From Naegleria gruberi (lineage: Eukaryota): a DNA stretch of 64,000 bases. The stretch lies in assembly GCA_000004985.1 (NCBI GenBank), contig GG738929.1; one strand, 5' to 3'. Positions 4,345 to 62,552 of the stretch are shown piece by piece. The notes under the pieces were generated by a model, which was not told the DNA's origin, did no database searches, and worked only from the letters and a program-made list of their open reading frames with translations. Both the position numbers and the translations under genes were made by a program. Position 1 is the first letter of the stretch; every line of letters starts with the position of its first letter.

Positions 4345-4417
4345 ACTCCCCCTGGTGGGCTCGAACCACCGACCTGCAGATTAACAGTCTGACGCTCTAC
4401 CGACTGAGCTAAGGGGG
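4345..4417 (-). tRNA. tRNA-Asn (anticodon GUU)
   Basis: The 73-nt cloverleaf has a 7-bp acceptor stem (TCCCCCT/AGGGGGA) and a D-arm GCTC/GAGC. The anticodon loop CTGTTAA carries U33 and A37. The T-arm is GGTGG-TTCGAGC-CCACC. There is no intron. Confidence 0.85.
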
Positions 4418-4532
4418 ATTACATGTACTAAGAATGGTTTCCACTAATATACAGACAAACGTCACTTTAATCAAATTTGTTAAATTTATTGTGGGAACAT
4501 TTACTGAACTCTGATTACAAAATTGAAAAAAA

Positions 4533-54212: not shown

Positions 54213-54414
54213 TTTTTTTTTATTGTTTATTTCCAGATAACACACAACATTCTCGACATTCTTTGATGTTCCAATTTCAATTTGATTGTAAACAAGAGTA
54301 AAAAAATTGAAGATGAGTTGAAAATCTATTTGTGTTAATATAGATTGAAGTAAATAATGGTGATTTAAAAAACACTAATATTAGAATGAATATTAAAAAA
54401 CCAATTCAAAGAAA

Positions 54415-56388
54415 ATGTACTCACTGCACCAACACACTACTCAAGATGAATGTAATGATCATTCACATTCTGATACCTTCTTCGATGATAATAGTACTAT
54501 TGAGTCATTGCTCAATGATGATTTGTTTTCACACCTTGCTGGCAATACTCAAGCACCATCAGAGAGTGGAGTTTCTAATTCTTGTCATGATTTTGAAGAT
54601 GATAACGATGATAATGAACGAGTTGACAATGAAGAAGAAAGTATGCCACCTTGTAAACACCTAACACCAGATGCAAAGAAGGAGAAGGAGGAATTTGTTG
54701 CTAGAAAATTAACAGAAGAGGAAATTCCAATGGAAAGAACAATATTTTGCAGTAATTGTACTTCATGCACTTCATGTGTCTGTCAGAAGAATAAGCTTCC
54801 CTGTACAGTTAAATGTGCATGTCAAATTAAATGTAAAAATTTGAGAAAAGAAGTACTAACTGATAATTGGATTCAACACAAAACCTTACCAGAAAGAAAT
54901 ATTGAAAGTCCACTAATAGTTGGTCCAATTAATGTGAAACAAGATTTATCCATAAAGGAATCATTTCAATTGATTTGGACACCTGATATTATAGAACACA
55001 TTTATGAGAGAACCAATAGAAAGTTTGAATATTGGCAAATTTACTCAGATGAGATTAAAATGTATAAACTTGCAATTAAAGACAAATCCAAAAAGAGAAA
55101 GAGAATGAACAATAACACTAATCCATCTGAATCCATTGAATTATGTTCAGATATCGAATATGATCAGCCAGTTAGAACTCCAAAAAAGATATTTCCTGAT
55201 TTTGATGAATATTTCACAAAATGTAAAACTGAAAACAAAATATTAGAAGAAAAGTTTTCAAGAAAGCAAATTACTAACTTTTTAAATATTTCTATATTGA
55301 TGAATACTACATGTAAAATTCCAAACATTTGCAATTATTGGACAATATCAGGACTTGATGCAGCCCTTTATGGAAATGGAATATTCAGATATTTAATGAG
55401 TAGATCAATGTTTAATCAAATCAAGCAGAATTTAACATGTGACTCTGATTTTTTGGAAATGAGAGTGAATGAGAATTCTAGAAAATTTTGGAAATGTTTC
55501 AAAGAAATTTCAGTGGATGAAATAATTGCTCCTTTCAAGGGAAAGATTAGTGACAAACAGTTTCTCCCCACCAAACCTCACAATTATGGATTGAAATATT
55601 ATACACTATCTGATTGGGTTGGGTATGTTTATGCATTTTGGTTGTCAAAACACGAACATAAATCAGATAAAATTGTTTTAGATCTTATTGAGCATATTGA
55701 TGATCCACAGAATCATATTTTAGGTGTCGACAATTATTATGGATCATTAAATTTAGCAAATCAATTATCAGAAAAAGAATGGAATTATGTCATGACAGTG
55801 AGGGCTAATAGACCAACATTTCTTTTCAGTGATGGATTGTTGAAACATCTCAAAAGAAGCAAAACTAAAAAGTGGACTCAAGCTGTCCATAAAAACAATC
55901 ACATGGCTGCTGTTTCTCTCAATGATCACAAAAAGGTTAATTTTTTAACTAATTTGGGAAGTAATCAAACATTTCATTCACAACCACTTGTTCAGAAATA
56001 TGAAAGAATGGGTTGTGTTGAATTGTCTGGAATCAATCTTTACAAAATGGATGTTCCCTTCGAGGTAAATAATTGGAAAATCATCCATCTCTTTGAAGTT
56101 CTACGTATAGCTCTCGTTAATCAATATTTAATTTATAAGCATGTTAGAAACTTAACTAATTTGACCCTCAATGAATATTTGCAAGAGGCAACATTATCTC
56201 ATTGTGAATCCACCAACCCAAATTTCAAAAGAACAATACATTTCCCATCCAGTGTCAAAACTCGTGGACTTTGTGAGCATTGTAAGAATTTTCATTCTCT
56301 CACTCCTATCAAATGTCCTGCTTGTAATTCCTACCTTCATCAAAAGTGTTTTGTAGATTTTCACCTTAAAAAACACATTTATTATTAA
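54415..56388 (+). CDS. piggyBac-transposase-derived protein (DDE_Tnp_1_7-like core, C-terminal Cys-rich zinc finger, extra N-terminal CxxC-rich region). It could be domesticated or the ORF of an element.
   Basis: The core blocks are WTPDIIEHIYERTN, IAPFKGKISDKQFLPTKPHNYGLKYY and GVDNYYGSLNLANQLSEKEWNYVMTVRANRPTF, matching the DNFFTS...GT.R.NR block. The C-terminus CEHCKNFHSLTPIKCPACNSYLHQKCF is a piggyBac-type CRD. The 657-aa ORF is intact. I did not verify TIRs or TTAA target sites. Confidence 0.7.
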   Translation: MYSLHQHTTQDECNDHSHSDTFFDDNSTIESLLNDDLFSHLAGNTQAPSESGVSNSCHDFEDDNDDNERVDNEEESMPPCKHLTPDAKKEKEEFVARKLTEEEIPMERTIFCSNCTSCTSCVCQKNKLPCTVKCACQIKCKNLRKEVLTDNWIQHKTLPERNIESPLIVGPINVKQDLSIKESFQLIWTPDIIEHIYERTNRKFEYWQIYSDEIKMYKLAIKDKSKKRKRMNNNTNPSESIELCSDIEYDQPVRTPKKIFPDFDEYFTKCKTENKILEEKFSRKQITNFLNISILMNTTCKIPNICNYWTISGLDAALYGNGIFRYLMSRSMFNQIKQNLTCDSDFLEMRVNENSRKFWKCFKEISVDEIIAPFKGKISDKQFLPTKPHNYGLKYYTLSDWVGYVYAFWLSKHEHKSDKIVLDLIEHIDDPQNHILGVDNYYGSLNLANQLSEKEWNYVMTVRANRPTFLFSDGLLKHLKRSKTKKWTQAVHKNNHMAAVSLNDHKKVNFLTNLGSNQTFHSQPLVQKYERMGCVELSGINLYKMDVPFEVNNWKIIHLFEVLRIALVNQYLIYKHVRNLTNLTLNEYLQEATLSHCESTNPNFKRTIHFPSSVKTRGLCEHCKNFHSLTPIKCPACNSYLHQKCFVDFHLKKHIYY

Positions 56389-56601: not shown

Positions 56602-56606
56602 AAAAA
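56602..56606 (-). terminator. Pol III oligo-T terminator of the 5S gene
   Basis: A TTTTT run lies directly 3' of the 5S end on the minus strand. Confidence 0.5.
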
Positions 56607-56724
56607 GACTACAGCACCACAGGTTCCCAAGTTGTCTCCAACCTCAGTACTGATGTGGCTCGACGATGCTTAACTTCTCAAATCGGACGGGATGAGGTGC
56701 ATGAATCGTGATATGGCCGTAGCC
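56607..56724 (-). rRNA. 5S ribosomal RNA, dispersed copy
   Basis: The minus-strand sequence GGCTACGGCCATATCACGATTCATGCACCTCATCCCGTCCGATTTGAGAAGTTAAGCATCGTCGAGCCACATCAGTACTGAGGTTGGAGACAACTTGGGAACCTGTGGTGCTGTAGTC (118 nt) matches the 5S consensus. Helix I pairs, and a T5 run follows as a Pol III terminator. Confidence 0.85.
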
Positions 56725-56780
56725 ATTTCCTATCATTAAATCTTAATTTTGAATAAGAATATTACTGATTTTTAAATCTA

Positions 56781-57266
56781 ATGTTTTCGTCTATGAATTC
56801 TATCTATTCTAACAATATTCTTTTCAATTTACAATTAAGACGGGAAGCCTGCCAGGAATATGGCGACAATCCCGCTACAGTCTTTGACTGTATGAACAGT
56901 GAAGGCAACGATCTTGCGATAGTTGGTTTGTTCAATTTGGTTGAGGAAATTAAGAAGATAACTGGCCTACTATTTATTTGTTGGCAATTAGCAAAGTTCT
57001 TCTTAAATTTTGGTTTGATTCTTTCACAAGATCAAATTTTGAATGCTATTGGTAAACCAGTCTTATCATTTGTTGTTGCAGATTTCGAAGATTCTGATAT
57101 GGAAGAAGTTTATCCAAACGAACCAGTTTCTTTGAAGGAAGGAGAAATTTTCAAATTGTATGGTAAAATCAAAAACTCTGGAAAGGAAACAGCTAAGGTT
57201 GCTGTATCTTTCAGATATGGTTCAAAGATTTATCACATTCAAGAACTTGATATTCCAACAAGTTAA
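56781..57266 (+). CDS. Hypothetical 161-aa ORF with a GC-rich 5' part whose codon usage is atypical for this genome
   Basis: An ATG sits at 56781. The segment 56838-56930 is GC3-rich (cgg gcc tgc cag ggc gac ccc), unlike neighbouring genes. The C-terminal half looks beta-rich. No domain recognised. Confidence 0.3.
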   Translation: MFSSMNSIYSNNILFNLQLRREACQEYGDNPATVFDCMNSEGNDLAIVGLFNLVEEIKKITGLLFICWQLAKFFLNFGLILSQDQILNAIGKPVLSFVVADFEDSDMEEVYPNEPVSLKEGEIFKLYGKIKNSGKETAKVAVSFRYGSKIYHIQELDIPTS

Positions 57267-58527
57267 CCGAGTTGATACAAATAAACGGTGAGACGGGCAA
57301 CGGGATGAACGGGATTCAGGCCGTTTCTTATTCTAAACGGGAGATTCTCTCCGCTTAATACTACAAGCTGGCAATTCAAATATGGAGAGAGAGCTTAGTA
57401 ACATTAATAAAATGAATGAGACATAATTACTTTTTGAATTTTCCTTTTATATTTGAAACTTTGACTCTGCTTACTTTCAATTGTTTGTTTAATATGGCTT
57501 GCTTGACTGAAGAATAAGCAATAACTAACACATCCAAACATCACCAAATTGGTCTGACTGGATTTTGAAGAAAAAATATTTCAACATCTAGTACGTGATG
57601 TACTTTGATGATTTACGGAGTGGTTTCACATCTTTATACCACAATAATTTCAGCCCTTCATCTATACATCATCTATATAATAGTAGTAATAATGATTTTT
57701 ATTGGAAAATTATCATCATGAAATTAGAAATCATTTTTCATCATGGAAAAATTGATGTTGGTGATACCATCATCTGATCATTCACCAACCATCATCAATG
57801 ATATTTTCCATCGATATAATAATAGTATTTAGTTATGATAGGGAAAGGTATGTGTGAAATTTGAAAATACACATGTATACTACCCATCATGTACTTCACC
57901 AAATCAAAAAGTTTCTTCTAGTAGTACTATTTAAATTGATAATAAACATCATATTTATTATAATTTATTCCTGTTCTTTTGTGTTGGTCAGGTTCCTGTT
58001 TGGTTGACTAAGAATTGGTTATTTACTCGCCCAAATTAAATTTCCAAATCGTGCAGCTTTCCCATGTATTAGTAAATATCAAATTAATAATAAATTTCAC
58101 TTTTTTTTTAATTTTTTATATAAGGCATTCCTTAACACTCTTTTTTTCCCTTAATTCTGAATAACTCTTGGATCAGATGACGAAACTTGAATTTTTTGAA
58201 TAATTATGGATATATATAAATAATGACAATGCTACTAACTGTAATTGGCATGTTTTATTCTTTGCGAATAAACTTGAAACAAATCTATTCAAAGATTTGC
58301 TAATTTGTTAGTTGAAATTACAAAATAAAACAACGAAACTTGAAATGATAACATACATGAATGCACACATCGAGTGGGGAAAGTTTCATGAAATAATAAT
58401 GTGAAATTTGATCTTGGGAATGAAATCGCTAAGAACAAGTAGATTAAATCCAACAACAAATGGAATCAATTAGAACAATTTTAGAATGTTACTGTGTTAT
58501 TGAGCTTAATATCCATTCTTAATTCCG

Positions 58528-58622
58528 TTTCTTACTTCAGACTGCCCCGTTGGACAGTTTCTTACTTGAGGCGGATTCCGTGAGACTGTGTGTTCCGTCA
58601 CTCCGTTTCTTAGTATTCACTC
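58528..58622 (+). promoter_or_regulatory. Triplicated GTTTCTTAC/GT-containing motif just upstream of the ATG at 58635
   Basis: TTCCGTTTCTTACTTCAG, GACAGTTTCTTACTTGAG and CTCCGTTTCTTAGTATTCACTCAG lie within about 95 nt. The patch is locally GC-richer than its surroundings. Confidence 0.25.
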
Positions 58623-58634
58623 AGTGTCCTAACA

Positions 58635-59144
58635 ATGTTCCTGAAGAGGCTGCCATGCCAACTTTGTGGGCTCAACAAAAGATTGACTCTCTCTCTGCAT
58701 TCCCTCAACTGTGCACAAGAAGCTAAAGATAAGCAAGAAAAGGAAAAGTTAGAAAGAATTATTAGTATGTGGAAGGAAAGAGTTAATTGGCATAAGACTG
58801 ACTTTAAATTACCTGAAGAAAAGCCAGAAAAGGAAAAGAAAAAGTTGGCTGCAATGGATGACTGTATTTCTGAATCTCTCTCTGTACAATCCTCTAGTTT
58901 GGATCGTTGTTGTAGATGTGAGGAGAATAGAGAATGTTGCAGACGTTCTTGTGCACCATCTCCAAGTTGTGCTAGAGGTTGTTGTTGTCGTTCTGCTAGT
59001 CCTTCTTTGAGTTGTTCAGATATCAGTTCAGGTCCACCACCACCTTCTGGAGGTGCAGGTAGTCCACCACCTCCTTCTGCTAAGTCAACAGCCTCTCAAG
59101 AAGAACCTAGTGTTGCTGGTACCATTCCATCTGGTAATTCATAA
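58635..59144 (+). CDS. Dubious Cys/Pro-rich ORF that overlaps the 3' end of the actin-like fragment on the opposite strand
   Basis: An ATG sits at 58635. The 169 aa carry a CCRCEENRECCRRSC block and PPPPSGGAGSPPPPS. They are low-complexity and partly antisense to the actin-like ORF. Confidence 0.2.
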   Translation: MFLKRLPCQLCGLNKRLTLSLHSLNCAQEAKDKQEKEKLERIISMWKERVNWHKTDFKLPEEKPEKEKKKLAAMDDCISESLSVQSSSLDRCCRCEENRECCRRSCAPSPSCARGCCCRSASPSLSCSDISSGPPPPSGGAGSPPPPSAKSTASQEEPSVAGTIPSGNS

Positions 59145-59785
59145 GAAACATCAGTCAGTGCCTTTTCATTTTCCTGTTCAAAATCCAATGCAACATAGCA
59201 AATATTATGCTTAATATCTGTCATGACATCTGTTGGATGCTCTGCAAAATATGGTATTTTACATCCAACAAATGCTTGAACCAAATATTCAGTAATTTCC
59301 CTTCCAGCAAAATTCCAACTTGAAATGGCATGTGTCAAGGCATATCCTTCATAGACAGGAACAGCTCTTGATACCATCTCTCCCAAATCCAAAACAATTC
59401 CACTTGTCTTGCCAGATGCAAACAATGCCAACACTCCTTGCATTGCCACATAAAAATTTGATATATTAAACTCCTCAAACACGATCTGCGTCATCCTCTC
59501 TCTATTACACTTTGGTTCCCTCACTGCTTCACTCATCAAGATTGGATGTAATTCTGGCCTGCATCTCAATTCTTCATAAATGGTTTGTCTCCAAACTAGT
59601 TCCATATCAGATATGTTGGTAATGACACAATGTTCAATTGGATATTTCAATGTACAGATACCTCTCTTAGCAATGGCTTCATCACCAACTACAGTGGTGC
59701 TTGTTGATTTCTTGTGATGGCCAACTATGGTTGGAAAGATTGATGTCGGAGTATTGTCTTGTTCATTTGCTATTCCTACTTTCAT
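59096..59785 (-). pseudogene. Divergent, truncated actin-like gene fragment, equivalent to about actin residues 20–250. It is a probable pseudogene or a decayed actin-related gene.
   Basis: FPTIVG...VGDEAIAKRGICTLKYPIEHCVITN...MTQIVFEEFNISNFYVAMQGVLALFASGKTSGIVLDLGEMVSRAVPVYEGYAL...ICYVALDFEQE...YELPDG follows actin colinearly. It lacks the N-terminal DNGSG phosphate-1 loop, the phosphate-2 DSGDGVTH motif is degenerate (DLGEMVSR), and the frame ends 9 codons after PDG, with the actin-like continuation in the +1 frame. Confidence 0.6.
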
Positions 59786-60460
59786 ATTACAAGATCAGTA
59801 AATAAATATCTCAGTTTAGTTTCTGAATAAAAAGTTGAAACCCAGTGTCAGGACTTGAACCTGAATTATGTGATTTGGACTTGTTGTTTAAGTATCGTCA
59901 GATTCACATGTCTTTCATTAGACTACACAGGGTTGAGTGGAATTGTTTTTTGGGTTTGATGTGTTGGCTGTGTTCAAGGATTATGAATCAGATTTTTGGT
60001 TTCAATGAATTAACATTTTCCAAATTTACCTTTCAAAGTTTGTTAAAAATCGGATTTTTGTGGCTTAATAATATCAGAGTTGTTTCTTAAGGAATGAAGA
60101 AATGTTGTTTACCCCCGATTATTTCGTAATTTTCTGACAACCATACGCCCCTAAATGAAAAGATAGATTTCTGCACCTCCTTCACCACCTCAAACTATAA
60201 TTCATGTCTCTTCCCCATCGTTTTCGGTTGTTTTAAAAAAAAGACAAAAAATAACTTGAAACCTCACTCCTTACCATTATTAAGCATTTTTCATCATTAT
60301 CACACCATCAAAAATGTTGAACACCCACTAGTAATGTTCTTCTACATGGTTTTATGTAGAAACCATCTAAAATTCATCTTCACTAGCCCAAAAAATTCAT
60401 TTCCTCTGTTGAAGAATATTTTCTGGTTTCTTTTTTTCTGTTCGGATTACAATTAAAAAA

Positions 60461-62552
60461 ATGTCTACAAATGCTACCAGGGCACAACTGTTTAATCCTT
60501 TTGGTGTTTTTGTTTCATCAAATAATGAAGTTTACATTGCTGATTTTTGTAATCATGCAGTTAGAAAAATATTAGAAAATGGAAATATTGTGACAATTGC
60601 AGGAAATGGAACTGCTGGATTCAGTGGTGATAATGGTCCTGCAACAAATGCACAATTTAATTATCCTTCTAGTGTTTTTGTTTCATCAAATAATGAAGTT
60701 TGCATTGCTGATTTACATAATCATAGAATTAGAAAAATATTAGAAAATGGAAGTATTATAACAATTGCAGGAAATGGAACTGTATGGATTCAGTGGTGAT
60801 AATGGTCCTGCAACAAATGCACAACTGTATAGGCCTTCTACTGTTTTTGTTTCATCAACTAATGAAGTTTATATTGCTGATTATAGCATAATCAAAGAAT
60901 TAGAAAAATATTGGAAAATGGAAATATTGTGACAATTGCAGGAAATGGAACTTATGGATTCAGTGGTGATAATGGGCTTGCAACAAATGCACAATTGTAT
61001 AATCCTTGTACTGTTTTTGTTTCATCAAATAATGAAGTTTATATTGCTGATCATACAATCAAAGAATTAGAAAAATATTAGAAAATGGAAATATTATAAC
61101 AATTGCAGGAAATGGAACTGATGGATTCAGTGGTGATAATGGTCCTGCAACAAATGCACAATTGTATTATCCTTCTAGTGTTTTTGTTTCATTAACTAAT
61201 GAAGTTTATATTGCTGATCAACATAATCACAGAATTAGAAAAATATTGGAAAATGGAAATATTATAACAATTGCTGGAAATGGAACTTATGGATTCAGTG
61301 GTGATAATGGTCCTGCAACAAATGCACAACTGAATCAGTCCTAATAGTGTTTTTGTTTCATCAAATAATGAGGTTTATATTGCTGATCAACAGTAATCAA
61401 AGAATTAGAAAAATATTAGAAAATGGAAATATTGTGACAATTGCAGGAAATGGAACTGCTGGATTCAGCGGTGATTCACCTTTTAATATTATAATGTATC
61501 CTCATATTGGAAATAAGTTATTAACTGGAAATAGTAGCTTGTACTCCAAAATAGAATATAATTTGAAAAAACATTCAAGAGATCAATTATTTGGATTTCA
61601 AATTTATGGATTCATTCCACTCATTGAAAAAATTTCACCAAAATTTAGTAATATTTTGAAGAATGAAAAGATGCTTTGTTTGATGAGTTCATCACAACAA
61701 GAAATTATTCAAAAATTAATTGATTCTTTGCTGTATGATAAGAACAAGGTAAAGTTTAGCAAAGAAGAAGTGTTGGATGTTTTATTCATTTTGGGTTTAT
61801 TTAAGAATGGTGAATTTATTGATTTGAAAAGATCATTGACAAGTGAATTTGTGAACTCATTCACATTAGAAAATCTTACTTTCAAATGGGAAACAATTGA
61901 AAATTTACTCAAAACTTGCAAAGAGGAATTTGGTATTCAAAATTACATTCTCGATCAATTGAATAACCATTGCATTGAATATGCTGCTGTTCAAATGCAA
62001 ACAAAAGAAGGAAACACTTTATTATCGACTCTTCCAATAATTATGAGAAATGCTACTGCCATATTTCCAAAAATGATCATTACTGAACCAACTGCAATTA
62101 ATATTGAGGAAACAATTGAAAATGAACCACAAACAATTGAATCATTATATGGTGATATGAAAACAAGTGATGTAAAAATCAAAATGGGACAAAACAAATA
62201 CTTATATTGTCACAAAACTGTATTGAGTTCATCAAGTACATTGTTTAATGCATTATTTGACAGTGGATCTTGTTTCAGTGATTTGAGTGATGATGGAATA
62301 TTCACACCTGACGAATCAGAAGATTTGGAATTATTGGAAATTGTGATCAAATATTGTTATAGAATTTCAATTGACAAAATTGATGCTGTTAAAATTATTG
62401 GATTACTTGATATGGCAATGAAACATGAAATTCAATATCTAATCAATTATTGCAAGAATAACTTTACTCTATCCATTGATAATTACTTTGCTATGCTTGA
62501 AGTTTGTGAAAATTTTTTGAATGCAATTTTTGAGAGAGATTCTCAAGTTTAG
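60461..62552 (+). pseudogene. NHL-repeat + BTB/POZ domain gene. Its NHL region is interrupted by frameshifts and stops. The C-terminal BTB ORF (61347..62552) is intact.
   Basis: The NHL motif reads FGVFVSSNNEVYIAD..NH.IRKILENGNI.TIAGNGT.GFSGDNGPATNAQ. The BTB domain reads DVKIKMGQNKYLYCHKTVLSSSSTLFNALF...LELLEIVIKYCYR. The reading frame breaks at 60797, between 60860 and 61160, and at 61340. Confidence 0.55.
60488..61500 (+). repeat. Tandem array of about 6 copies of a 170-nt unit, each coding one NHL repeat
   Basis: The unit (…AGGAAATGGAACTGCTGGATTCAGTGGTGATAATGGTCCTGCAACAAATGCACAA…) recurs at about 60600, 60771, 60941, 61111, 61280 and 61450. Copies 3, 4 and 6 carry 1–2-nt indels relative to intact copies. 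Confidence 0.8.

What the first reader, a model, noticed from the sequence alone, without database searches (positions are those of the whole stretch)
58528..59785. Decayed actin-like fragment with an antisense Cys/Pro-rich ORF and a triplicated upstream motif
The minus strand encodes about 230 aa colinear with actin. It has lost the DNGSG and DSGDG nucleotide-binding loops and ends prematurely, with the actin-like continuation in the +1 frame. This is either a dying actin paralog or an exapted fragment. An overlapping plus-strand ORF (CCRC…, PPPP-rich) is preceded by three copies of a GTTTCTTAC element.
Basis: partly seen in the sequence, partly recalled or inferred. Interest (0 to 1): 0.55.

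Follow-up and report, generated by a model that had tools for sequence, protein, structure and literature searches.

The report
Two truncated pseudogenes and a transposon end
The region is a decaying spare copy of a Naegleria gruberi locus: a single deletion fused the stumps of an actin-like gene and its convergent neighbour, and the "upstream motif" is the end of a small transposon, so this is ordinary genome decay rather than a new system.

Summary
The window comes from Naegleria gruberi NEG-M. The minus-strand ORF 59096-59785 is actin-derived (Pfam actin E 3e-53). It covers codons 15-234 of a 362-codon divergent actin whose full-length versions are NAEGRDRAFT_44817 and a metagenome gene that is 98.8% identical in DNA.

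The fragment has two lesions:
- A 121-124 bp deletion removed the start codon, codons 1-11 and the proximal upstream DNA.
- Homology stops dead at 59125. No C-terminal half exists anywhere in the window, in any frame.

The plus-strand Cys/Pro-rich ORF is annotated as NAEGRDRAFT_75815. It is a stump of the convergent VIT-domain gene, whose intact paralogue is NAEGRDRAFT_53384. Its homology ends at the same junction (59126). One deletion of about 1.33 kb therefore removed both 3' ends.

That stump also carries a 162-nt frameshifting deletion and a 1,355-bp insertion (57268-58622). The insertion has 28-nt terminal inverted repeats, an imperfect 9-bp target duplication and subterminal AACGG/CCGTT repeats.

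The actin fragment differs from its closest relative by 6 nonsynonymous and 1 synonymous changes, which fits neutral drift.

Verdict: an unannotated duplicated pseudogene, a mis-annotated chimeric ORF and a non-autonomous DNA transposon. Low interest.

The parts
59126..59794 (-). Actin pseudogene fragment: codons 12-234 of a 362-codon divergent actin. DNA homology to L001 runs 59125-59799. The open ORF 59096-59785 starts at the native internal Met15 and adds 9 foreign codons (MVPATLGSS) before TGA.
   Evidence: tblastn and Pfam. 98.8% DNA identity to L001 855-1529. P0001 residues 12-234 align at 97.8%. Codon-level differences are 6 nonsynonymous and 1 synonymous.
59797..59802 (-). 5' deletion junction. 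About 121-124 bp of the parental sequence (94 bp upstream, the ATG and codons 1-11, MTKTAIIIDNG) are replaced by the filler TTTACT. This creates an in-frame TGA just upstream of the remaining SCN-Met15.
   Evidence: L001 116-733 matches window 60422-59803 and L001 855-1529 matches 59799-59125. Junction sequences were read directly. Mismatch GGA to TGA at L001 857. The missing 23-mer is absent from the window at up to 3 mismatches.
59125..59126 (.). Deletion junction shared by the two convergent genes, with TT microhomology. Actin homology ends at 59125 and VIT-gene homology ends at 59126 (...SVAGTI). About 1,333 bp are missing: the last 296 VIT codons, 55 bp of spacer and actin codons 235-362.
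   Evidence: Junction sequences of the window against L001 and L005. P0122 and P0148 alignments end at SVAGTI. The gene convergent to actin on L001 ends with the VIT C-terminus. Size estimate.
58713..59126 (+). VIT-gene remnant, piece C. This is the Lys/Glu-rich, Cys-rich and Pro-rich linker, equal to residues 537-678 of NAEGRDRAFT_53384.
   Evidence: phmmer hits to VIT-domain proteins of N. fowleri, Willaertia and others. tblastn alignments. Pairwise alignment to P0148. Coding-like codon usage of 0.33 bits/codon on the plus strand against -0.02 antisense.
58635..59144 (+). Annotated ORF NAEGRDRAFT_75815 (XP_002669260.1, 169 aa), a chimeric reading. Residues 1-26 are piece B read out of frame. 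Residues 27-164 are piece C in frame. Residues 165-169 (PSGNS) and the TAA stop are antisense of actin codons Y-E-L-P-D.
Evidence: 100% identity to P0121.
58711..58712 (+). Internal deletion junction in the VIT remnant. 162 nt (the conserved FKDDIKKIGQEFRIVTDNTSLIVLETL... block) are replaced by a single G, giving a frameshift.
   Evidence: L005 1194-1355 is absent from the window. The block is present in P0148, P0136 and all homologues.
58634..58711 (+). VIT-gene remnant, piece B (NVPEEAAMPTLWAQQKIDSLSAFPQL), equal to residues 455-482 of NAEGRDRAFT_53384.
57268..58622 (.). A 1,355-bp AT-rich insertion with the anatomy of a non-autonomous DNA transposon. It has 28-nt terminal inverted repeats (57269-57296 and 58595-58622, 23 of 28 matching). 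It has an imperfect 9-bp target-site duplication of AGTGTTAAC (57260-57267 and 58623-58633). Subterminal repeats are AACGG x4 on the left and CCGTT x3 on the right. It has no ORF of 61 aa or more.
   Evidence: The empty site is read in L005 (...CCAACAAGTGTTAACAATGT...) and in the continuous coding sequence of P0148 and P0136. TIR alignment. AACGG and CCGTT occur only 14 and 10 times in the 64 kb, with 4 and 3 of them at the two ends in mirror orientation. The ends are 47-48% GC and the interior is 27.5% GC. There is no intron at this position in the N. fowleri gene.
58525..58613 (+). All three lie in the last 100 nt of the inserted element, and the third lies inside its right terminal inverted repeat. 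A fourth CCGTTTCTTA sits in the left end at 57321.
57021..57263 (+). VIT-gene remnant, piece A, with 81 of 81 residues identical to NAEGRDRAFT_53384 residues 373-453. The parental residues 1-372, including the VIT domain, are absent from the window. The 5' junction near 57020 is shared with NAEGRDRAFT_76288 and L005.
   Evidence: The Pfam VIT domain lies only in the N-terminal part of the homologue.
59840..59932 (-). Intron-containing tRNA gene upstream of the actin fragment, co-duplicated with it. It is also present in L001 and L005.
   Evidence: Rfam RF00005, 43.2 bits against a threshold of 29. The alignment to L001 shows one substitution, in the intron. L005 2506-2653 matches window 59803-59950.
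60422..60423 (.). Outer boundary of the block homologous to L001. Beyond it the window has the start of an NHL-repeat gene (ATG 60461, plus strand). L001 has an unrelated, divergently transcribed gene there.
56606..56724 (-). 5S rRNA gene abutting the truncated VIT copy. It marks the left part of the sequence shared with the sister decayed copy L005.
   Evidence: Rfam RF00001, 100.3 bits. L005-window alignment.

Best explanation
The interval is the centre of a decaying, partial duplicate of an N. gruberi locus. In the intact locus a VIT-domain gene (plus strand) and a divergent actin gene (minus strand) converge with 55 bp between their stop codons. An intron-containing tRNA gene lies upstream of the actin.

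The intact pair in the same genome is NAEGRDRAFT_53384 and NAEGRDRAFT_44817, on another scaffold.

The copy in this window was disabled in five ways:
1. The VIT gene lost its first ~372 codons at a junction next to a 5S rRNA gene. Two sister copies share this lesion, so it is the oldest.
2. A 1,355-bp non-autonomous DNA transposon inserted into the VIT remnant.
3. A 162-nt deletion frameshifted the VIT remnant.
4. One deletion of about 1.33 kb, with 2 nt of microhomology, removed the 3' ends of both convergent genes. It fused VIT codon 678 to the antisense of actin codon 234.
5. A 121-124 bp deletion removed the actin start codon, codons 1-11 (including DNG of the first phosphate loop) and the proximal upstream DNA.

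Both remnants are therefore pseudogene debris. The 229-codon actin ORF is still open only because the lesions are recent, with about 1.2% divergence. The annotated 169-aa 'predicted protein' NAEGRDRAFT_75815 is a gene-finder reading of the VIT linker stump. The GTTTCTTA repeats are the transposon's subterminal and terminal repeats.

Shown directly: all homologies, junctions and lesions.
Inferred: the order of events, non-function, and physical adjacency of 53384 and 44817. Adjacency rests on the same scaffold length, consecutive UniProt accessions, and a 53384 C-terminus identical to the gene convergent to actin on L001.
For: - Organism and annotation: the plus ORF is 100% identical to N. gruberi XP_002669260.1.
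- Actin parent: P0001 is 362 aa and intronless on L001. P0002 is NAEGRDRAFT_44817.
- DNA colinearity at 98.8-98.9% with two breakpoints and a 5' deletion.
- No C-terminal or N-terminal actin exons anywhere in the window.
- The plus ORF is homologous to the middle of VIT-domain proteins.
- The gene convergent to actin on L001 ends with the exact C-terminus of NAEGRDRAFT_53384.
- 53384 and 44817 both sit on a 236,320-bp scaffold.
- The VIT pieces are 81/81, 25/27 and 131/142 identical to 53384.
- Junction sequences and the transposon empty site.
- TIR, target duplication and subterminal repeats.
- The sister copy L005 shares the 5S/VIT junction but carries different private deletions.
- pN/pS is 1.6. 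This is incompatible with omega 0.05 (p = 1e-4) and with omega 0.2 (p = 0.03).
- The actin ORF is not in the annotated proteome: there was no 100% hit.
Against: - No DNA of the other two N. gruberi scaffolds could be fetched. It is therefore open whether this copy is a paralogous segmental duplicate or a divergent haplotype of another scaffold, and where the duplication ends.
- The actin fragment is closer to the metagenome gene (5 amino-acid differences) than to NAEGRDRAFT_44817 (8 differences). 44817 may not be its direct parent.
- No transcription data were available, so expression of either ORF is not excluded.
- The substitution test rests on only 7 differences.
- The transposon call rests on a single copy. 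No second copy was found in the 64 kb or in the fetched loci. Its target-site duplication is imperfect.
Confidence: 0.85

Rival explanations
1. Gene birth or exaptation. On this view the debris is used: NAEGRDRAFT_75815 would be a real, expressed young protein-coding gene, or the truncated actin (residues 15-234) would be expressed as a regulatory or dominant-negative fragment. NAEGRDRAFT_75815 combines an out-of-frame VIT start, the in-frame VIT linker and an antisense-actin tail.
For: Both ORFs are uninterrupted. The plus ORF has gene-like codon usage and was called by the genome annotators.
Against: - The codon usage is explained by inheritance from the VIT gene, with 131 of 142 positions identical to 53384.
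- The plus ORF has no homologue as an independent protein.
- The actin ORF lost its upstream 94 bp and its ATG. It lacks phosphate loop 1 and everything from actin residue about 248 onward, so it cannot form the actin fold.
- Its substitutions look neutral.
- The sister copy L005 deleted the actin entirely and frameshifted the same linker.
Confidence: 0.05
2. Assembly artefact. On this view the junctions at 59125/59126 and 59797-59802 are mis-joins or collapsed repeats in the draft assembly, and the real genome has intact genes here.
For: At least three related copies exist in the genome, which invites mis-assembly. No reads could be inspected.
Against: - The junction is a simple colinear deletion with 2 nt of microhomology, not a join at a repeat.
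- The 5' deletion carries non-templated filler.
- The copy has several other independent lesions.
- An independent metagenome assembly (L005) shows the same kind of decayed copy, 100% identical over the 181 nt up to the junction (L005 1520-1700 matches window 58946-59126), with its own deletions.
Confidence: 0.05
3. The anatomy is the same but the origin differs. On this view the window is not a dispersed paralogous duplicate. It is one structurally divergent haplotype of a locus whose other haplotype was assembled separately as the 23.6-kb scaffold carrying NAEGRDRAFT_76288.
For: NAEGRDRAFT_76288 shares the same odd 5' junction and N-terminal sequence. It is about 97% identical over the VIT remnant, lacks the transposon and the internal deletion, and sits on a very short scaffold.
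Against: Its tail (RLDTCHFKLEFCWKGNY*) is sense-strand, out-of-frame actin sequence. This implies a different orientation of the actin piece from the window. Divergence of about 3% in protein, with indels, is high for alleles. No DNA of that scaffold was available.
Confidence: 0.3
4. The 57268-58622 segment is a lineage-specific spliceosomal intron of the VIT gene and not a transposon. On this view the GTTTCTTA(C/G) repeats are polypyrimidine or 3' splice-site-like signals.
For: A GT...TAG pair (57263 ... 58613) could join ...ELDIPT to IFTQCPNNVPEE in frame. This was worked out by eye.
Against: - The intact paralogue, the second copy and L005 have no interruption there.
- N. fowleri has no intron there.
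- The segment has terminal inverted repeats, a duplicated 9-mer target and mirror-image subterminal repeats. Introns have no need for these.
- The gene is dead downstream in any case.
Confidence: 0.05

Closest known systems
Duplicated (non-processed) pseudogenes arising from segmental duplication
   Same: The copy includes non-coding flanks and a neighbouring tRNA gene. It is truncated at both ends, lacks a start codon and promoter-proximal DNA, shows neutral-looking substitutions, and intact parent-type genes exist elsewhere in the genome.
   Different: Two convergent genes were truncated by one deletion, so the stumps abut tail-to-tail. The annotated ORF on one strand borrows its stop codon from the antisense of the other gene.
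Divergent actin NAEGRDRAFT_44817 and metagenome protein P0001 (actin family, PF00022)
   Same: 96-98% amino-acid identity over codons 12-234. The family-specific DLGE(S/M) replaces DSGDG, and the 7-residue deletion in the DNase-I-binding loop region is shared.
   Different: The window copy lacks codons 1-11 and 235-362 and cannot encode an actin fold. The family itself is only about 50% identical to conventional actin. Only two full-length members were found among 5.8 billion clustered proteins.
VIT-domain proteins of Heterolobosea (N. gruberi NAEGRDRAFT_53384, N. fowleri FDP41_013521, Willaertia magna ABK040_008103)
   Same: The Cys/Pro-rich ORF is homologous to their internal linker (…ISMWKERVNWHKTDF…, Cys-rich and Pro-rich stretch, …SVAGTI).
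   Different: No VIT domain, no TPR region and no DUF2135 C-terminus remain. It is interrupted by a transposon and a frameshifting deletion.
Non-autonomous TIR DNA transposons (MITE-like; Mutator or hAT-type target duplications of 8-9 bp)
   Same: Terminal inverted repeats, a target-site duplication, GC-richer ends carrying short subterminal repeats in mirror orientation, an AT-rich non-coding interior, and a documented empty site.
   Different: Only one copy was seen. The superfamily is not assigned and the target duplication is imperfect. It is unrelated in sequence to the piggyBac-type transposase ORF 3 kb upstream.

Membership tests
Actin family (functional actin or Arp) | Significant match to the actin/Arp profile (PF00022) | tested here: met
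   E 3.2e-53, 181 bits, but covering only profile positions 17-268 of 410. 49% identity to ACTB residues 18-247.
Actin family (functional actin or Arp) | Phosphate-binding loop 1 (DNGSG, actin residues 11-15) present in the product | tested here: not met
   Codons 1-11 (…IIIDNG) are deleted. An in-frame TGA precedes the remaining S-C-N-Met15.
Actin family (functional actin or Arp) | Phosphate-binding loop 2 (DSGDG, actin residues 154-158) | tested here: inconclusive
   It reads DLGEM here and DLGES in the intact relatives P0001 and P0002. D154 and G156 are kept. S151M is a two-nucleotide change private to this copy.
Actin family (functional actin or Arp) | Complete fold, including residues about 248-375 (rest of subdomain 4, subdomain 3 and the C-terminal part of subdomain 1) | tested here: not met
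   Homology ends at codon 234. There is no C-terminal half in any frame of the 64-kb window.
Duplicated (non-processed) pseudogene | Homology extends into the parent's non-coding flanks; no poly-A or retrocopy signature | tested here: met
   620 bp of upstream DNA, including a tRNA gene, is 98.9% identical to L001.
Duplicated (non-processed) pseudogene | Disabling lesions relative to intact relatives | tested here: met
   A 5' deletion of the ATG and a 3' truncation at a deletion junction.
Duplicated (non-processed) pseudogene | Relaxed selective constraint | tested here: met
   6 nonsynonymous and 1 synonymous differences from L001, pN/pS 1.6. This rejects omega 0.05 at p = 1e-4. The sample is small.
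Duplicated (non-processed) pseudogene | Intact parent-type gene elsewhere in the same genome | tested here: met
   NAEGRDRAFT_44817 (actin) and NAEGRDRAFT_53384 (VIT) are both on a 236,320-bp scaffold. Their adjacency is inferred and was not seen.
VIT-domain protein family (for the plus-strand ORF) | VIT domain (PF08487) and the C-terminal DUF2135/YfaP_C domain | tested here: not met
   The ORF has no Pfam domain. The homologue carries VIT at residues 116-226 and DUF2135 at 971-1018. Only linker residues 373-453, 455-482 and 537-678 of 53384 survive in the window.
TIR DNA transposon (non-autonomous) | Terminal inverted repeats at the exact ends of the insertion | tested here: met
   28 nt with 23 of 28 matching, at 57269-57296 and 58595-58622. 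None is expected in shuffles.
TIR DNA transposon (non-autonomous) | Target-site duplication and an empty site in a related sequence | tested here: met
   The empty site AGTGTTAAC is read in L005. The flanking copies are AGT--TAAC and AGTGTCCTAAC, so the duplication is imperfect. P0148 and P0136 read through the site.
TIR DNA transposon (non-autonomous) | Multiple dispersed copies in the genome, or a related autonomous element | not testable with these tools
   No other copy in the window or the fetched loci.

The most novel reading that the evidence does not exclude
NAEGRDRAFT_75815 could be a true young gene. Its reading frame would have been assembled within about 1-3% sequence divergence from three kinds of debris: out-of-frame VIT coding sequence, an in-frame Cys/Pro-rich VIT linker, and a stop codon donated by antisense actin. 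It would be transcribed from a promoter supplied by the end of the inserted transposon. That would be a datable example of gene birth from pseudogene wreckage in a heterolobosean.
Probability: 0.04. Interest if true: 0.5.

Novelty: new member of a known kind. Interest (0 to 1): 0.12.

Why it matters
This matters mostly for annotation.
- An unannotated actin pseudogene should be added to the N. gruberi annotation.
- NAEGRDRAFT_75815, and probably NAEGRDRAFT_76288, should be flagged as pseudogene-derived models.
- A small TIR transposon with a clean empty site is available to seed a repeat library for N. gruberi.

The locus also gives a compact, datable series of independent deletions. The window, a second scaffold and two metagenome contigs carry the same duplicated unit with different lesions. 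That series could be used to study the deletion spectrum and haplotype structure in Naegleria.

It does not reveal a new biological system.

Tried and rejected
1. Spliced model restoring full actin. No C-terminal actin similarity was found in any frame of the 64 kb with ACTB or with the 98%-identical P0001. The missing N-terminal 23-mer is absent at up to 3 mismatches. The intact relative is intronless. Rejected.
2. '+1 frame continuation'. The three minus-strand frames downstream of the stop show nothing actin-like. That DNA is antisense of the VIT linker. Rejected.
3. Inversion of the actin 3' half onto the plus strand. There are no tblastn hits on either strand. Rejected.
4. The minus-strand 161-codon open frame after the stop as a real extension or readthrough. 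Its codon score is -0.02 bits/codon against 0.33 for the plus strand, and it has no Pfam hit. It is an antisense by-product.
5. Exact-sequence look-ups of the two window ORFs and of NAEGRDRAFT_44817 found nothing on record. The other N. gruberi scaffolds could therefore not be read.
6. JGI metagenome scans found nothing for the plus ORF, and only a 47%-identical ordinary actin for P0001.
7. The word-indexed protein search of the plus ORF found only itself. The exhaustive phmmer search was needed to reveal the VIT homology.
8. Weak hits dismissed as chance: Pfam CID domain at E 0.077 and Rfam PYLIS_3 at 22.7 bits against a threshold of 38.
9. The motif as a promoter element. It is inside the transposon end, not in native upstream DNA.
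10. Literature. There were no papers mentioning NAEGRDRAFT_44817 and nothing specific on N. gruberi actin pseudogenes. PiggyBac-class repeats are reported in the N. lovaniensis genome paper (PMC6125883).
11. The N. fowleri orthologous locus has no actin next to the VIT gene, so that synteny is specific to the N. gruberi lineage.
Full report
**Source and observation**

The window is AT-rich (about 32% GC) and gene-dense. The plus-strand ORF 58635-59144 is 100% identical to XP_002669260.1, NAEGRDRAFT_75815, a 'predicted protein' of Naegleria gruberi on a 189,881-bp scaffold. That identifies the source as N. gruberi NEG-M.

The minus strand at 59096-59785 carries an uninterrupted 229-codon ORF that is clearly actin-derived:
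- Human beta-actin residues 18-247 align at 49% identity, E 4e-69.
- Pfam PF00022 gives E 3.2e-53, covering only profile positions 17-268 of 410.

The core observation therefore holds.

**What the actin fragment is**

A search of 5.8 billion clustered proteins found two close relatives. All other hits were ordinary actins at about 50% identity.
- P0001 is 362 aa and 98% identical. It is encoded without introns on a 2.1-kb ENA metagenome contig, L001.
- P0002 is NAEGRDRAFT_44817 of N. gruberi. It differs at 8 of about 196 comparable residues. Its 335-aa model skips 27 residues.

Both relatives begin MTKTAIIIDNGSCNMKVG… and end …IVHRKCF. Both read DLGES where actin reads DSGDG. The altered second phosphate loop is therefore a trait of this small divergent-actin family and not decay of the window copy. 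The window copy has one further private change, S151M, made by two nucleotide substitutions.

At the DNA level L001 aligns to the window in two blocks:
- L001 855-1529 matches window 59799-59125 at 98.8% identity.
- L001 116-733 matches window 60422-59803 at 98.9% identity.

Between the two blocks, 121-124 bp of L001 are replaced in the window by the filler TTTACT. The lost sequence comprises 94 bp upstream of the ATG, the ATG itself and codons 1-11. The replacement creates an in-frame TGA directly before S-C-N-Met15.

At the other end, identity stops abruptly after …CCAGATGGAA, which is codon 234 (YELPDG) at window position 59125. No actin C-terminal half exists anywhere in the 64 kb, on either strand or in any frame. 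Both ACTB and P0001 were tried as queries. The missing N-terminal coding 23-mer is also absent.

**What the plus-strand ORF is**

Codon usage favours the plus strand. It scores 0.33 bits per codon, within the 0.11-0.55 range of the window's long ORFs. The co-open antisense frame scores -0.02.

The word-indexed protein search found no relatives. An exhaustive phmmer search of 1.8 billion representatives did find them. The ORF matches the middle of large VIT-domain proteins:
- N. fowleri FDP41_013521, 1033 aa.
- Willaertia magna ABK040_008103.
- Two environmental proteins.

A follow-up search with the N. fowleri protein, plus cluster look-ups, gave two N. gruberi relatives:
- NAEGRDRAFT_53384 (P0148) is 974 aa and intact. 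It sits on a 236,320-bp scaffold, the same scaffold length as for NAEGRDRAFT_44817. The two have consecutive UniProt accessions, D2VZ14 and D2VZ15.
- NAEGRDRAFT_76288 (P0136) is 614 aa and sits on a 23,652-bp scaffold.

Three pieces of 53384 survive in the window:

| Piece | Window coordinates | 53384 residues | Identity |
|---|---|---|---|
| A | 57021-57263 | 373-453 | 81/81 |
| B | 58634-58711 | 455-482 | 25/27 |
| C | 58713-59126 | 537-678 | 131/142, with a 4-aa indel |

The annotated 169-aa ORF is a chimeric reading:
- Residues 1-26 are piece B read one base out of frame.
- Residues 27-164 are piece C in frame.
- Residues 165-169 (PSGNS) and the TAA stop are the antisense of actin codons Y-E-L-P-D.

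**The junction**

On L001, 55 bp beyond the actin stop codon, a convergent gene ends …QSLTGGTTILCTFFTNYMRPNEQRQMSTIRLSSQKQDIVVCEIDIA*. This is exactly the C-terminus of NAEGRDRAFT_53384. The intact arrangement is therefore VIT gene reading rightward and actin reading leftward, tail to tail.

In the window, VIT homology ends at …SVAGTI, with the ATT codon at 59124-59126. Actin homology ends at 59125. The two stumps meet in the ancestral order and orientation, with a 2-nt TT overlap.

The simplest reading is one deletion of about 1,333 bp. It removed the last 296 VIT codons, the 55-bp spacer and actin codons 235-362.

**The 'triplicated upstream motif'**

Pieces A and B are adjacent in every homologue but lie 1.36 kb apart in the window. 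A second contig from the same metagenome, L005, reads straight through the site: …CCAACAAGTGTTAACAATGT…. So do the coding sequences of 53384 and 76288. N. fowleri has no intron there.

The inserted segment 57268-58622 has these features:
- 28-nt terminal inverted repeats, GAGTTGATACAAATAAACGGTGAGACGG and GAGTGAATACTAAGAAACGGAGTGACGG, with 23 of 28 positions matching. They are the only two matches in the window, and none is expected by chance.
- An imperfect duplication of the 9-mer AGTGTTAAC at its flanks.
- Ends that are GC-richer (47-48%) than the interior (27.5%).
- Mirror-image subterminal repeats. Four of the window's 14 AACGG lie in the left 70 nt. Three of its 10 CCGTT lie in the right 100 nt.

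Two of them directly follow one of the three CCGTT, as CCGTTTCTTA. The third GTTTCTTA copy lies inside the terminal inverted repeat. A fourth CCGTTTCTTA sits in the left end at 57321.

I read the segment as a non-autonomous TIR DNA transposon of unassigned superfamily. A 9-bp target duplication would fit Mutator-like elements, which is an inference only. The motif is therefore not native upstream DNA of any gene.

**Further lesions and sister copies**

Between pieces B and C, 162 nt encoding a block conserved in all homologues (FKDDIKKIGQEFRIVTDNTSLIVLETL…) are replaced by a single G. This shifts the frame.

The first ~372 codons of the VIT gene, including the VIT domain, are absent. The 5' junction near 57020 abuts sequence containing a 5S rRNA gene. 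NAEGRDRAFT_76288 and L005 share this junction. The three copies therefore descend from one already-truncated duplicate.

L005 then decayed in its own way:
- It has a 68-nt deletion in the Cys-rich stretch.
- It has lost the whole actin gene, with a junction about 15 bp from the window's 5' actin breakpoint.
- It keeps the parts the window lost.

NAEGRDRAFT_76288 ends in RLDTCHFKLEFCWKGNY*. This is sense-strand, out-of-frame actin sequence (compare). It implies yet another VIT/actin junction of different geometry on that scaffold. I could not read that DNA.

**Selection**

Over codons 12-234 the window differs from L001 at 7 nucleotides in 6 codons: I46V, M72I, K81Q, S151M (two changes), A187V and one synonymous change. 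This gives pN/pS of 1.6. The result is compatible with neutrality. It is incompatible with omega 0.05 (p = 1e-4) and with omega 0.2 (p = 0.03).

Using NAEGRDRAFT_44817 as outgroup, V46, M151 and V187 are derived in the window copy. The numbers are small but point to a pseudogene.

**Mechanism and status**

- Shown: all homologies, breakpoints, filler, microhomology and transposon anatomy.
- Inferred: the order of events. The shared 5' VIT truncation came first. The transposon insertion, the internal deletion, the double 3' deletion and the actin 5' deletion followed, in unknown order.
- Inferred: neither stump is functional.

A product starting at Met15 would lack the first beta-strand and phosphate loop 1. 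It would also lack everything from actin residue about 248 onward. From established knowledge of the actin fold, it cannot form the two-lobed nucleotide-binding cleft.

Whether the copy is a dispersed paralogue or a divergent haplotype, for example of the 23.6-kb scaffold, remains open.

**Comparison and novelty**

Each component belongs to a well-known kind: a duplicated non-processed pseudogene, a mis-annotated ORF on pseudogene debris, and a MITE-like DNA transposon. The specific instances appear to be undescribed. No paper mentions NAEGRDRAFT_44817, and the actin ORF is not in the annotated proteome.

The tail-to-tail fusion of two convergent stumps by one deletion is neat but not surprising. 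Interest is low.

The only mildly novel reading is that NAEGRDRAFT_75815 is a real newborn gene. Nothing supports it beyond an open frame with inherited codon usage.

Noticed in passing
window 56606-56724 (-): A 5S rRNA gene (Rfam 100.3 bits) lies immediately upstream of the truncated VIT copy. The junction between 5S-containing sequence and VIT codon ~373 is shared by the window, NAEGRDRAFT_76288 and metagenome contig L005.
   Followed up: partly
window 59840-59932 (-): An intron-containing tRNA gene (Rfam 43.2 bits) that ARAGORN did not report as run here. The anticodon loop reads AUCUGA, so probably Gln-CUG, with an intron of about 23 nt. A TTTTT run follows it. It is conserved in L001 and L005, with one substitution in the intron.
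   Followed up: partly
window 54415-56388 (+); inverted repeat 54362-54382 / 56758-56778: A 657-aa uninterrupted ORF with a piggyBac-type DDE transposase domain (PF13843, E 1.6e-33). A 21-nt, 90% inverted repeat brackets it together with the 5S gene. L005 shares the right arm but not the transposase, so the repeat may be coincidental.
   Followed up: partly
window 60461-62552 (+): An NHL-repeat coding region switches reading frame several times (ORFs at 60461, 60765, 60911, 61162) before a BTB-domain ORF (61347-62552). Some repeat units read as frameshifted versions of RIRKILENGNI. The cause could be short introns or another decaying gene.
   Followed up: no
NAEGRDRAFT_76288 (P0136), 23,652-bp N. 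gruberi scaffold (not in window): This annotated 614-aa protein is a second 5'-truncated VIT copy. Its last 17 residues (RLDTCHFKLEFCWKGNY*) are an out-of-frame, sense-strand reading of the divergent-actin sequence (compare window 59370-59315, minus strand). This implies a different VIT/actin rearrangement on that scaffold.
   Followed up: partly
P0001 / NAEGRDRAFT_44817 (relatives of window 59126-59794): The intact divergent actin family has DNGSC and DLGES in the two phosphate loops and is about 50% identical to actin. Only two full-length members turned up among 5.8 billion clustered proteins. It is absent next to the orthologous VIT gene of N. fowleri. Its function is unknown.
   Followed up: partly
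L005 2440-2510 vs L001 ~750; window 59797-59803: Two independent deletions, in L005 and in the window, have breakpoints about 15 bp apart in the A/T-rich stretch just upstream of the actin gene and downstream of the tRNA terminator. This may be a fragile spot.
   Followed up: no
window 59142-59149 (-) vs 58527-58612 (+): The actin coding sequence itself contains GTTTCTTA (codons V-S-Y) 17 nt inside the deletion junction, in inverted orientation to the three transposon-end copies. This is probably coincidence: there are 9 occurrences on both strands of the 64 kb.
   Followed up: no
window 4346-4418 (-): A second tRNA gene (Rfam 67.9 bits).
   Followed up: no
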